DNA of 64,000 bases from Dehalococcoidia bacterium (lineage in GTDB: Bacteria > Chloroflexota > Dehalococcoidia > Lucifugimonadales > JAGWBF01): NCBI GenBank assembly GCA_965220375.1, contig OZ244824.1:200406-264405 (forward strand). Direction: 5' to 3'. Shown here piece after piece: positions 17,288 through 62,870 of this stretch. How positions within the stretch are numbered: the stretch's first letter is position 1; each line of letters begins with the position of its first letter. The translations under genes were made by a program, and so were the position numbers. The notes below the pieces were generated by a model that saw only the letters and a list, made by a program, of their open reading frames with translations, was not told the DNA's origin and searched no databases.

Positions 17288-17324
17288 ATATTCAAGGCAA
17301 AACTACGGCAGTCTGTTCGCCCTG
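17288..17324. repeat. left half of a REP-like palindromic element, interrupted by the IS110-family insertion
   Basis: ATATTCAAGGCAAAACTACGGCAGTCTGTTCGCCCTG matches the reverse complement of the element tail at 47570-47600 (27 of 31). It also matches the forward units of the 62.3-kb array (AACTACGGCTGGCCGTTCGCCCTG). Confidence 0.8.
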
Positions 17325-17561
17325 GGAGAAGCAGATGGAACTCTGTGTCTCTTCTCAGTTGACCCAAACACCTCCCATTCGCCCTTGTATCTTAAAGAGG
17401 GACGTGACAGACCGCTTCGTCCTAGGCTTTGAAGGCCGTCCCTCAGCAGGGTCGTCACGTCCAGTCCCTCTCGGAGCCCGAACAGTTGACTGGGCAGTTG
17501 AGCCCGAATTAGGCAAGGATGGGCCAGAGTTGGGGAGAGTATCTTGAAGGGAGGTAGATGA
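17325..17561 (+). ncRNA. candidate IS110 bridge (guide) RNA in the 5' non-coding end
   Basis: The region is ORF-free. The stem GGACGTGAC (17400-17408) / GTCACGTCC (17454-17462) encloses a large internal loop. The loop's 3' side, TCCCTCAG (17439-17446), is the exact reverse complement of junction plus right flank CTGAGGGA (18525-18532). Its 5' side resembles the left flank. No folding or covariance analysis was possible here. Confidence 0.4.
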
Positions 17562-18509
<948 letters not shown>

Positions 18510-18527
18510 CTTTAAAGACAGTTGCTG

Positions 18528-18556
18528 AGGGAAATCAAAGAGTGAACGGACAGCCC
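18528..18556. repeat. right half of the REP-like element interrupted by the IS110-family insertion
   Basis: AGGGAAATCAAAGAGTGAACGGACAGCCC parallels CTGAGGCAAATCGAACGGTGAACGGACAGCC at 47551-47581. Confidence 0.75.
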
Positions 18557-47410: not shown

Positions 47411-47600
47411 GGGCTGCCCTGAGGAAAATGCAGGGACCTGGGTCTCCCGTTCGCCCTGTCCCCATTTCCGTTCACCCTGCGGGAACTCGAAGGGTCTGAG
47501 ATCTCCGTTCGCCCTAAGGGAAATCTAAGGGCCCAGGACGCCCTTTCGCCCTGAGGCAAATCGAACGGTGAACGGACAGCCGTAGTTGTGCCTTGAACAT
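47411..47600. repeat. array of 4-5 degenerate direct REP-like half-units closed by one inverted arm and the conserved tail
   Basis: GGGCTGCCCTGAGGAAAATGCAGGGACCTGG / TCCCGTTCGCCCTG / TCCGTTCACCCTGCGGGAACTCGAAGGG / TCCGTTCGCCCTAAGGGAAATCTAAGGGCC / CCTTTCGCCCTGAGGCAAATCGAACGGT, then GAACGGACAGCCGTAGTTGTGCCTTGAACAT. Confidence 0.8.
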
Positions 47601-62260: not shown

Positions 62261-62870
62261 ATCCAACAACTACGGCTGGCCGTTCGCCTTGAAGGAAATC
62301 CAAGGCCTGGGCTGGCCGTTCGCTCCAACTAGGGCTGGCCGTTCGCCCTGAGGAAATCCAAGGGCCTGTGCTGACCGTTCGCTCCAACTACCGCTGGCCG
62401 TTCGCTCCAACTAGGGCTGGTCGTTCGCCCTGAGGAAAATCCAAGGCCCTGGGCTGACCGTTCGCCCCAACTACGGCTAGCCGTTCGCCCTGAGGAAATC
62501 CAAGGGCCTGTGCTGGCCGTTCGCTCCAACTAGGGCTGACCGTTCGCCCCAACCTGGGCTGGCCGTTCGCCTTGAAGGAAATCCAAGGCCTGGGCTGGCC
62601 GTTCGCTCCAACTAGGGCTGGCCGTTCGCCCTGAGGAAATCCAAGGGCCTGTGCTGACCGTTCGCTCCAACTACCGCTGGCCGTTCGCTCCAACTAGGGC
62701 TGGTCGTTCGCCCTGAGGAAAATCCAAGGCCCTGGGCTGACCGTTCGCCCCAACTACGGCTAGCCGTTCGCCCTGAGGAAATCCAAGGGCCTGTGCTGGC
62801 CGTTCGCTCCAACTAGGGCTGACCGTTCGCCCTGAGGAAACTTGAAGGGGAACGGCCAGCCCAGGGCCCA
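62261..62870. repeat. tandem array of 20 direct REP-like half-units (core GCTGRCCGTTCGC) with two alternating spacer classes, closed by a single inverted arm GAACGGCCAGC; contains a perfect 283-bp duplication
   Basis: Parsed by hand. Long units are core plus CTGAGGAAATCCAAGGGCCTG-type (~37 nt). Short units are core plus CCAACTAGG-type (~23 nt). The order is L S L S S L S L S S, repeated twice. The array lies between convergent genes. Confidence 0.9.

What the first reader, a model, noticed from the sequence alone, without database searches (positions are those of the whole stretch)
17325..17561. Candidate programmable bridge RNA with segments matching both target flanks and the IS end
The 237-nt ORF-free 5' end contains a stem GGACGTGAC (17400-17408) / GTCACGTCC (17454-17462). 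GACC (17410-17413) / GGTC (17450-17453) extends it, and a short distal hairpin GGC (17425-17427) / GCC (17435-17437) caps it, leaving a large internal loop. The loop's 3' side contains TCCCTCAG (17439-17446), the exact reverse complement of core plus right flank CTGAGGGA (18525-18532). Its 5' side CTTCGTCCT (17415-17423) matches the left flank GTTCGCCCT (17315-17323) in the same sense at 7 of 9 positions. One guide in sense and one in antisense on opposite sides of an internal loop is the geometry described for IS110/IS621 bridge RNAs. In addition, TTCGCCCT (17378-17385) is an exact sense copy of the left flank (17316-17323). CAGTTGA occurs three times (17356-17362, 17483-17489, 17495-17501) and matches the right IS end ACAGTTG (18518-18524), so these could be donor-binding guides. 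If real, the RNA would be naturally programmed against the genome's own REP family.
Basis: partly seen in the sequence, partly recalled or inferred. Interest (0 to 1): 0.8.

Follow-up and report, generated by a model that had tools for sequence, protein, structure and literature searches.

The report
IS110 bridge RNA targeting genomic repeats

Summary

- **Boundaries.** The insertion sequence is 17386-18524 (1139 bp), flanked by the core dinucleotide CT. It does not start at 17325. An identical copy at another site and seven 89%-related copies fix both ends.
- **Structure.** The 176-nt left end folds into two stem-loops with internal loops: a target-binding loop at 17400-17462 and a donor-binding loop at 17467-17533. 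Across 53 distinct related sequences, 94% of paired cells form pairs and 28 of 34 pairs show compensatory changes.
- **Guides.** CTTCGTCCT (17415-23) is a sense copy of the real left flank ATTCGCC-CT (17377-85). TCCCTCAG+CA (17439-48) is antisense to CT-GAGGGA plus the last two bases of the element. ACAGTTG (17482-88) copies the right end.
- **Covariation.** Guides track their flanks across about 30 guide classes (0 of 20,000 shuffles reach the observed match).
- **Homology.** A model built from this clade finds the validated E. coli IS621 bridge RNA. The transposase keeps all five catalytic residues.
- **Differences from IS621.** There is no room for a 5' stem-loop, and the right target guide is longer.

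This is a new member of a known kind. RNA expression and recombination are untested.

The parts
17384..17385 (+). Left copy of the core dinucleotide CT. With 17377-17383 (ATTCGCC) it forms the true left target flank.
   Evidence: Identity with an exact second copy (L082) and with related copies begins immediately after this CT.
17386..18524 (+). The insertion sequence: 1139 bp, IS110 group, with a 176-nt left end and a 15-nt right end.
   Evidence: A 100% identical 1139-bp copy sits in a different context in L082. Alignments with L001-L005 and L024 fix both ends.
17388..17393 (+). -10 hexamer (TATCTT) of the promoter predicted to form only at the RE-LE junction of the circular form. The predicted transcription start is near 17400.
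   Evidence: The geometry TTGACT, 17 nt, TATCTT is conserved across the family and is the same as in IS621. No promoter-like site exists in the integrated state. The IS621 mechanism is described in PMC11208160.
17400..17462 (+). Target-binding loop module. Stem 17400-08/17454-62; bulged A at 17409; stem 17410-13/17450-53; cap hairpin 17425-29/17433-37.
   Evidence: RNAalifold consensus. Helices 1-3 are 94-98% paired, and 15 of 18 pairs show changes on both sides.
17415..17423 (+). Left target guide CTTCGTCCT, a sense copy of the left flank plus core. The positions that carry information are 17417-23.
   Evidence: It matches ATTCGCC-CT at 7 of 9 positions, with one further U.G wobble. It matches GGTCGTC-CT of the second copy at 7 of 9. 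Covariation across 33 guide classes: 4.70 of 7 against 2.56 when shuffled.
17439..17446 (+). Right target guide TCCCTCAG, antisense to core plus right flank CTGAGGGA.
   Evidence: 8 of 8 at both known insertion sites. Covariation across 27 guide classes: 4.79 of 6 against 1.83 when shuffled.
17447..17448 (+). Handshake guide CA of the target-binding loop, complementary to the last two bases of the right end (TG, 18523-24).
   Evidence: The 10-nt complementarity runs past the core into the element's end (pair I11). The handshake-guide role is described in PMC11208158.
17467..17533 (+). Donor-binding loop module. Base stem 17467-80/17520-33; cap hairpin 17492-95/17502-05.
   Evidence: Helices 4-8 are 82-97% paired, and 13 of 16 pairs show changes on both sides. 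The module aligns to the IS621 donor-binding loop.
17482..17488 (+). Left donor guide ACAGTTG, a sense copy of the last 7 bases of the right end.
   Evidence: Identical to 18518-24. It covaries in relatives: ACAGCTG, ACAATCG, ACAGTCG and ACATCTG in both guide and right end.
17508..17519 (+). Right donor guide AUUAGGCAAG, in which CAAG (17514-17) is antisense to core plus TG, followed by the handshake guide GA (17518-19).
   Evidence: It aligns with the IS621 guide AUUUGCAAG-GU. GCAAG is invariant in 20 relatives. G17518 is complementary to C17383; A17519 is not complementary to C17382.
17562..18509 (+). IS110-family recombinase (DEDD type, serine-containing Tnp domain), 315 aa, intact.
   Evidence: Pfam PF01548 and PF02371. 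NCBIfam NF033542 'IS110 family RNA-guided transposase', 219.6 bits. 35% identity to IS621, with D11, E55, D97, D100 and S235 aligned to the catalytic residues. PDB matches 9t56 and 8wt6.
18506..18511 (+). -35 hexamer (TTGACT) of the junction promoter. It overlaps the stop codon.
   Evidence: TTGAC is conserved at a fixed distance from the right end in most relatives.
18518..18524 (+). Left donor ACAGTTG, the last bases of the right end. The short sub-terminal inverted repeat AAG (18515-17) / CTT (17391-93) flanks the donor.
   Evidence: Conserved right end. The layout matches IS621, ATA-ACAGTAT-CT-TGTAT-TAT.
18525..18532 (+). Right copy of the core CT plus the right target flank GAGGGA.
   Evidence: Both copies of the element share CT-GAGGGAAAT and then diverge.

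Best explanation
Window 17386-18524 is an intact IS110-group insertion sequence. Its 176-nt left end encodes a bridge RNA on the same strand as the recombinase gene.

Shown here:
- The RNA region has two stem-loops, each interrupted by a large internal loop.
- The first loop carries a sense copy of the left target flank plus the CT core on its 5' side. On its 3' side it carries an antisense copy of core plus right flank, followed by two bases complementary to the element's own last two bases.
- The second loop carries a sense copy of the element's right end, and CAAG antisense to core plus the first two bases of the left end.
- These guides change together with their flanks in related elements.

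Inferred by homology with IS621:
- After excision, the circular form joins the right and left ends and creates a promoter (TTGACT, 17 nt, TATCTT).
- Transcription starts near 17400.
- The RNA binds the recombinase tetramer and pairs with both strands of target and donor around CT.
- The recombinase then inserts the circle at TTCG(T/C)C-CT-GAGGGA, a variant of a repeat family that is abundant in this genome.
For: - **Boundaries.** They are fixed by an exact second copy and by related copies.
- **Recombinase.** It has the domains and all five catalytic residues.
- **Structure.** The consensus fold has 94% of cells paired and 28 of 34 pairs with changes on both sides. Controls with the partner slid by 1-3 columns give 32-51% paired.
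- **Strand.** There are 127 G.U cells against 27 A.C cells, which favours the + strand.
- **Guide-flank covariation.** The left target guide matches its flank at 4.70 of 7 positions against 2.56 +/- 0.20 when shuffled. The right target guide matches at 4.79 of 6 against 1.83 +/- 0.24. In both cases 0 of 20,000 shuffles reach the observed value, and the wrong-orientation controls show nothing.
- **Informative positions.** These are -7 to -1 on the left and +1 to +7 on the right.
- **Donor guide.** It covaries with the right end.
- **Homology.** Model R1 hits the IS621 bridge RNA with loop aligned to loop (22.2 bits, E 6e-6).
- **Promoter.** The junction-promoter geometry is identical to that of IS621.
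- **Target.** The programmed motif occurs 19 times in the window at up to 2 mismatches, against 1.26 expected by chance.
Against: - No RNA, binding or recombination data exist for this element.
- Folding energy is not distinctive (z-scores -0.52 and -1.64).
- Only 14 nt separate the element's start from the first stem. The 5' stem-loop described as structurally conserved in IS110 orthologues cannot be present.
- The left donor guide is not followed by a core-matching CT in most relatives.
- The left target guide matches the two known sites at only 7 of 9 positions.
- The structure counts were made on an alignment fitted to the model, which leans towards the model's structure.
- The only Rfam hit is below that family's threshold and lies on the opposite strand.
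Confidence: 0.92

Rival explanations
1. The left end is only a 5' untranslated or promoter region that happens to contain a captured fragment of the target repeat. Under this reading the matches to the flanks are passive.
For: The left guide is a sense copy of a very abundant repeat. Folding energy is not exceptional.
Against: The guides covary with the flanks in elements inserted into unrelated targets. Examples are CTGTCGAA, CTCCCTCC, CTGGTCAC and CTACGTTA, each matched by its own loop. The antisense guide sits at a fixed structural position on the other side of the loop. The stems show compensatory changes.
Confidence: 0.02
2. The functional product is an antisense small RNA from the minus strand, of the Rfam sX15 type, which regulates the transposase mRNA rather than guiding recombination.
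For: Rfam sX15 hits the minus strand at 17386-17549 (48.8 bits, E 1.7e-6). sX15 was detected by northern blot in Xanthomonas (PMC3300014).
Against: The hit is below the family's gathering score of 55. G.U pairs outnumber A.C pairs by 127 to 27 on the + strand. The guide orientation fits only the + strand (controls). In Xanthomonas the complementary RNA asX7 is also expressed, on the bridge-RNA strand. An antisense RNA could coexist with a bridge RNA.
Confidence: 0.04
3. The element is a decayed relic, and its RNA retains the form of a bridge RNA but no longer supports transposition.
For: There is only one copy in the 64-kb window. The left target guide matches its sites imperfectly. Many related copies in other genomes have interrupted transposase reading frames.
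Against: The reading frame is intact, with all catalytic residues. A 100% identical 1139-bp copy lies at a second, different site, which indicates recent movement. All stems are intact.
Confidence: 0.08

Closest known systems
IS621 bridge RNA and recombinase of E. coli (Durrant et al. 2024, PMC11208160; Hiraizumi et al. 2024, PMC11208158)
   Same: - The recombinase has the same architecture and catalytic residues (35% identity).
- The RNA is encoded in a long left end, and the right end is short.
- The core is CT.
- The ends are near-identical: ACAGTTG-CT-TGTAT here and ACAGTAT-CT-TGTAT in IS621.
- The junction promoter has the same spacing.
- The order of target-binding then donor-binding loop is the same, as are the bulged A and the G after the stem.
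- The sense/antisense guide geometry, the handshake guides and the GCAAGG donor guide are shared.
- Both target a palindromic repeat family.
   Different: - The first stem starts 14 nt after the element's start, against 47 nt in IS621. There is therefore no 5' stem-loop.
- The right target guide carries information for 5-6 bases beyond the core, against 2 in IS621.
- The host is an uncultivated Dehalococcoidia lineage.
- Nucleotide similarity is detectable only with a covariance model (22 bits).
ISCro4 / IS622 bridge recombinases (PDB 9t56; bioRxiv 10.1101/2025.05.14.653916)
   Same: ISCro4 transposase is the best match among solved structures (E 1.5e-41, aligned over residues 4-314).
   Different: The RNAs were not compared here. 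Those systems are proteobacterial and have been engineered for use in human cells.
Rfam RF02234 sX15 and its complement asX7 on Xanthomonas plasmid pXCV183 (PMC3300014)
   Same: They are homologous in sequence and structure over the whole two-loop region. Model R1 hits that locus at 61 bits. The locus is followed by the start of an IS110-type transposase gene, MNGIGIDVCKAKL.
   Different: The Rfam model represents the opposite strand. The window scores below that family's threshold. The library's sRNA paper describes the family as a small RNA of unknown function, not as a bridge RNA.
IS1111-group elements with the RNA in the right end (seekRNA / bridge RNA)
   Same: They share the recombinase family and RNA-guided choice of target.
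   Different: Here the right end is only 15 nt and the RNA lies in the left end. The sub-terminal inverted repeat is 3 bp rather than 7-17 bp.

Membership tests
IS110-group bridge RNA system (IS621 type) | [quoted passage not shown] | tested here: met
   PF01548 and PF02371. NF033542 at 219.6 bits against a cut-off of 140. D11, E55, D97, D100 and S235 align with IS621 D11, E60, D102, D105 and S241.
IS110-group bridge RNA system (IS621 type) | Long non-coding left end upstream of the recombinase gene, a short right end, and a structured RNA on the sense strand | tested here: met
   The left end is 176 nt and the right end 15 nt. The model hits directly upstream of the gene in nearly all of 79 loci. 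G.U pairs outnumber A.C pairs 127 to 27.
IS110-group bridge RNA system (IS621 type) | Two stem-loops, each with a large internal loop, supported by covariation | tested here: met
   RNAalifold consensus. 94% of cells are paired and 28 of 34 pairs change on both sides, against at most 15 in the slid controls. The alignment was fitted to the model.
IS110-group bridge RNA system (IS621 type) | First loop: 5' side in sense to left target plus core, 3' side antisense to core plus right target, both covarying with the flanks | tested here: met
   0 of 20,000 shuffles reach the observed match for either guide. Wrong-orientation controls show no signal. Per-position profile.
IS110-group bridge RNA system (IS621 type) | Second loop: 5' side in sense to the right end, 3' side antisense to core plus the start of the left end | tested here: met
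   The left donor guide is identical to the right end and covaries with it in four variant lineages. The right donor guide CAAG matches CTTG but never varies, so it could not be tested for covariation.
IS110-group bridge RNA system (IS621 type) | Handshake guides: the two bases 3' of each antisense guide pair with positions 6-7 of the other DNA | tested here: met
   In the target-binding loop, CA pairs with donor TG at 2 of 2 positions (pair I11). In the donor-binding loop, GA pairs with target CC at 1 of 2, as in wild-type IS621 (PMC11208158).
IS110-group bridge RNA system (IS621 type) | A short core (CT) present on both sides of the inserted element | tested here: met
   CT lies at 17384-85 and at 18525-26. 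The same holds in L082 and in the related copies.
IS110-group bridge RNA system (IS621 type) | A promoter rebuilt across the RE-core-LE junction of the circular form | tested here: met
   TTGACT, 17 nt, TATCTT is conserved in the family at the same position as in IS621. No such site exists in the integrated copy. Promoter activity was not tested.
IS110-group bridge RNA system (IS621 type) | A 5' stem-loop preceding the target-binding loop | tested here: not met
   Only 14 nt separate the element's start from the first stem, in the window and in its closest relatives. IS621 has 47 nt, which include a 33-nt stem-loop. This is an accessory feature: deleting it only slightly reduces IS621 activity (PMC11208158).
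IS110-group bridge RNA system (IS621 type) | Detectable homology to a validated bridge RNA | tested here: met
   Model R1 hits the IS621 bridge RNA at L080 1892-2058 with 22.2 bits and E 6e-6, module aligned to module.
IS110-group bridge RNA system (IS621 type) | RNA expressed, bound by the recombinase, and required and reprogrammable for recombination | not testable with these tools
   This needs RNA sequencing and in vitro or in vivo recombination assays.
Rfam RF02234 (sX15) | A score at or above the gathering threshold on the modelled strand | tested here: not met
   48.8 bits against a threshold of 55, and on the strand opposite to the recombinase gene.
IS1111 group | RNA in a long right end and sub-terminal inverted repeats of 7-17 bp | tested here: not met
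   The right end is 15 nt. The inverted repeat is AAG/CTT, 3 bp.

The most novel reading that the evidence does not exclude
This Dehalococcoidia clade may encode a naturally minimal bridge RNA of about 135-150 nt. It would start at the stem of the target-binding loop, so it would lack the 5' stem-loop described as structurally conserved in IS110 orthologues. It would also read a longer right target arm than IS621 does.

A related point concerns a proteobacterial homologue, the sX15/asX7 pair in Xanthomonas. There both strands of the same region are transcribed, and the sense RNA detected corresponds to the target-binding module alone. This hints at antisense control or at split bridge RNAs in nature.
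Probability: 0.4. Interest if true: 0.45.

Novelty: new member of a known kind. Interest (0 to 1): 0.3.

Why it matters
The element adds a well-documented natural bridge RNA system from an uncultivated Chloroflexota lineage. Its boundaries, guides, two natural target sites and a set of about 30 covarying relatives are all defined here.

It is compact, with no 5' stem-loop, and it specifies about 12-15 bp of target. That could interest people who mine bridge recombinases for use as tools.

The analysis also shows that an existing Rfam small-RNA family, sX15, is the reverse complement of a bridge-RNA homologue. This is worth correcting in annotation.

None of this changes the current picture. 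Bridge RNAs were already predicted in most IS110 elements.

Tried and rejected
- **Left boundary at 17325.** Identity with the exact second copy and with relatives starts at 17386.
- **Three CAGTTGA donor guides.** Only 17483-89 is conserved. 17356-62 is host flank, and 17495-501 is a variable hairpin loop.
- **Closing stem from the sX15 model.** The Rfam sX15 model implies an outer stem, 17390-97 with 17542-49. It is absent from the consensus fold and showed no consistent pairing when I inspected the alignment by eye. The predicted transcription start would also exclude its 5' arm.
- **Extra pairs inside the donor-binding loop.** RNAalifold predicted three pairs there. They never vary and overlap the guides, so I left them out of the model.
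- **Folding energy as evidence.** It is not significant.
- **Metagenome scans.** Two exact-pattern scans of metagenome contigs for further copies with the same guides found nothing.
- **Accession AM039951.** It was not in the plasmid collection. NC_007507 worked.
- **IS110 remnant on pXCV183.** tblastn of the transposase against the pXCV183 stretch gave no hit, because only the first codons of that gene remain. Pfam found nothing in the annotated 98-aa ORF.
- **Automatic end detection.** My first rule misplaced several left ends and one right end. I refined it. One right end (L071) is still mis-called, which only weakens the observed signal.

Full report
**1. What is at the locus**

- The ORF at 17562-18509 (+) encodes a 315-aa protein with the two Pfam domains of IS110 transposases, PF01548 and PF02371.
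- It matches NCBIfam NF033542, 'IS110 family RNA-guided transposase', at 219.6 bits against a cut-off of 140.
- Its best matches among solved structures are ISCro4 (9t56) and IS621 (8wt6).
- It is 35% identical to IS621. D11, E55, D97, D100 and S235 align with the IS621 catalytic residues D11, E60, D102, D105 and S241 (residue roles from PMC11208158).

**2. Boundaries**

A scan of reference genomes returned 79 related loci at 48-89% protein identity, most of them in Dehalococcoidia genome bins.

- In one genome, seven copies of an 89%-related element are identical to each other from TGTATCTTAAA... onwards, but differ upstream. They are preceded by GTTC(A/G)CC-CT.
- At the other end they all finish with ...GACAGTTG, followed by CT and the flank.
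- A look-up of the window's exact protein found a second contig (L082) that carries the whole 1139-bp stretch 17386-18524 at 100% identity in a different gene context. Its flanks are ...GGTCGTC-CT and CT-GAGGGAAATCTAC....

The element is therefore 17386-18524, with the core CT on both sides (17384-85 and 18525-26).

- The left end is 176 nt and the right end 15 nt, the layout of the IS110 group (PMC11208160).

**3. Structure**

An alignment of 20 left ends gives a consensus of two stem-loops, each with a large internal loop. I built covariance model R1 from 16 trimmed sequences with that structure.

- R1 hits once in the window (17386-17538, 166.5 bits) and directly upstream of the transposase gene in nearly all 79 loci.
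- On the resulting alignment of 53 distinct rows, 94.0% of cells form standard pairs. Shuffled controls give 81.1%, and controls with the partner slid by 1-3 columns give 32-51%.
- 28 of 34 pairs show changes on both sides, against at most 15 in the slid controls.
- One caveat applies: the alignment was fitted to the model, which leans towards the model's structure. However, the first stem takes clearly different forms in different lineages, such as GGACGTGAC/GTCACGTCC, GGGTGCGGT/GCCGCACCC and GGTCGTGGC/GCCACGACC.
- G.U cells outnumber A.C cells 127 to 27. The structured strand is therefore the sense strand of the transposase gene.
- Folding energy alone is unremarkable (z-scores -0.52 and -1.64).

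**4. Guides in the window**

Target-binding loop, 17400-17462:
- The 5' strand is G + CTTCGTCCT + A (17414-24).
- The 3' strand is G + TCCCTCAG + CA + G (17438-49).
- CTTCGTCCT matches the true left flank ATTCGCC-CT in sense at 7 of 9 positions. The T/C difference at 17420 would be an rU.dG wobble with the bottom strand.
- It matches the second copy's flank GGTCGTC-CT at 7 of 9, including that T.
- TCCCTCAG is the exact reverse complement of CT-GAGGGA at both sites.
- The next two bases, CA, are complementary to the last two bases of the element (TG) (pair I11). This is the position and role of the handshake guide described for IS621 (PMC11208158).

Donor-binding loop, 17467-17533:
- The 5' strand contains ACAGTTG (17482-88), identical to the last seven bases of the right end (18518-24).
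- The 3' strand contains CAAG (17514-17), antisense to core plus TG. It is preceded by AUUA, which can pair discontinuously with the TAT of the left end.
- It is followed by GA. G17518 is complementary to C17383, and A17519 is not complementary to C17382.
- This pattern resembles wild-type IS621, where G166 pairs and U167 does not (PMC11208158).

The required geometry is that the left guides are in sense and the right guides antisense (PMC11208160). That geometry is met.

**5. Covariation of guides with flanks**

For every locus I extracted the loop strands from the model alignment. I located the element's ends from the conserved motifs CT|TGTAT and ACAnnnn|CT, without using the loop sequences.

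| Comparison | Guide classes | Observed match | Shuffled (mean +/- sd) | Highest shuffle | Shuffles reaching observed |
|---|---|---|---|---|---|
| Left target guide vs left flank (7 non-core positions) | 33 | 4.70 of 7 | 2.56 +/- 0.20 | 3.33 | 0 of 20,000 |
| Right target guide vs right flank (6 non-core positions) | 27 | 4.79 of 6 | 1.83 +/- 0.24 | 2.81 | 0 of 20,000 |
| Left donor guide vs right end (7 positions) | 17 | 6.38 of 7 | 5.72 +/- 0.13 | 6.32 | 0 of 20,000 |

- The same tests in the wrong orientation give no signal.
- Elements in unrelated targets each carry the matching loop. Right flank and reverse-complemented guide agree as follows: CTGTCGAA/CTGTCGAA (L041), CTCCCTCC/CTCCCTCC (L054), CTGGTCAC/CTGGTCAC (L061), CTCAAGGG/CTCAAGGA (L056) and CTACGTTA/CTACGTAA (L044).
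- Per position, information lies at -7 to -1 on the left and +1 to +7 on the right.
- The left donor guide follows variant right ends: ACAGCTG, ACAATCG, ACAGTCG and ACATCTG.

These results exclude the reading that the left end passively carries a captured repeat fragment.

**6. Direct link to the validated system**

- The 177-nt IS621 bridge RNA sequence, which I recalled from memory, was found at 100% identity in E. coli genomes. It lies directly upstream of a gene annotated 'IS110-like element IS621 family transposase'.
- Model R1, built only from Dehalococcoidia sequences, hits it at 22.2 bits (E 6e-6 for the 3.8-kb locus). Target loop aligns to target loop and donor loop to donor loop, including UUGCGUAG-AU with UagCUCAG-Ca and AUU-UGCAAGG with AUuAuGCAAGG. 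The left target guides align one base out of register with the published A50-U58 guide.
- The ends are also homologous. IS621 reads ATA-ACAGTAT-CT-TGTAT-TAT, and this element reads AAG-ACAGTTG-CT-TGTAT-CTT. Each has a 3-bp sub-terminal inverted repeat.

**7. Expression model (inferred)**

- In the circular form the right end supplies TTGACT (18506-11). After 17 nt the left end supplies TATCTT (17388-93).
- The same hexamer positions are conserved in the family and in IS621, which reads TTGCAG, 17 nt, TATTAT.
- The integrated copy has no promoter-like site.
- In IS621 the RNA starts at left-end position 15 (PMC11208160). Here that position is G17400, the first base of the first stem.
- The window and its closest relatives have 14 nt between the element's start and that stem, against 47 nt in IS621. 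The 33-nt 5' stem-loop of IS621 therefore has no counterpart.
- More distant relatives have 26-71 nt there.

**8. Target**

- The programmed motif TTCGYCCTGAGGGA occurs 19 times in the window at up to 2 mismatches, against 1.26 expected by chance. Most copies lie in two repeat arrays, 47471-47558 and 62283-62839.
- The occupied site is an imperfect palindrome. CATTCGCCCT and AGAGTGAACG form the arms around GAGGGAAATCAA.

**9. The Rfam hit**

- The only notable Rfam match is sX15 (RF02234) on the minus strand: 48.8 bits against a threshold of 55, E 1.7e-6.
- On Xanthomonas plasmid pXCV183, model R1 hits the strand opposite to sX15 at 61.1 bits.
- That hit is followed by the first codons of an IS110-type transposase gene.
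- The source paper reports a complementary RNA, asX7 (116528-116459). In the locus coordinates, asX7 starts 6 nt before the first stem and spans about the target-binding module (PMC3300014).
- sX15 is therefore the reverse complement of a bridge-RNA homologue. No paper in the searched library links sX15 or asX7 to bridge RNAs.

**10. Verdict**

- The element is a new member of a known kind, with modest differences from IS621: no 5' stem-loop and a longer right target guide.
- RNA expression, recombinase binding and recombination were not and could not be tested here.

Noticed in passing
L081 1584-1737 (pXCV183, NC_007507.1 116383-116536): Rfam family sX15 (RF02234) is the reverse complement of a bridge-RNA homologue. 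Model R1 hits the opposite strand at 61 bits, and the start of an IS110-type transposase gene follows. The published complementary RNA asX7 (70 nt) starts 6 nt before the first stem and covers roughly the target-binding module only.
   Followed up: partly
window 62267-62840 and 47440-47600: These are arrays of the target repeat family (units CCGTTCGCCCTGAGGAAATCCAAGGGCC...). The array at 62274-62832 is a 283-nt higher-order unit present twice at 100% identity. None of the copies matches the bridge RNA's GAGGGA arm perfectly.
   Followed up: partly
L080 1780-1862 (E. coli NZ_CP024240.1): Upstream of this IS621 copy lies a truncated left end that stops exactly after the left target guide ATCGGGCCT. 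The full element follows it. The element appears to have inserted into the guide sequence of another copy, which mimics the target.
   Followed up: no
L001 and L005, about 1770-1824: Short fragments of the element's start (GTTCGCCC(T/G)-TGTATCTTGG...) lie next to repeat units just upstream of full copies. They may be scars of earlier insertion and deletion events.
   Followed up: no
L026, L028, L059: In these copies the first ~40 nt of the left end, including the 5' half of the first stem and the left target guide, are replaced by unrelated sequence. The rest of the RNA region is intact.
   Followed up: no
L063 and L066: The left junction reads ...CACAT|TGTATG (AT instead of CT), and the left target guide also ends in AT. 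The right junction has CT. This could be a variant core guide or a half-matched site.
   Followed up: no
L037 110-274 (-) and 304-466 (+); L076 989-1140 and 2230-2380: Two bridge-RNA regions lie head-to-head within 30 nt in L037. In L076, two different elements are adjacent, and the second sits just after the right end of the first.
   Followed up: no
L048-L055, L072, L073, L078 (genome CBDEFY01): Many copies have transposase reading frames cut to 84-118 codons while their RNA regions are identical and intact. These could be pseudogenes or assembly errors in these genome bins.
   Followed up: no
window 17325-17356: The hairpin GGAGAAGCAGA...TCTCTTCTC lies in the host flank between two repeat units. 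It is not part of the element, and its function is unknown.
   Followed up: no
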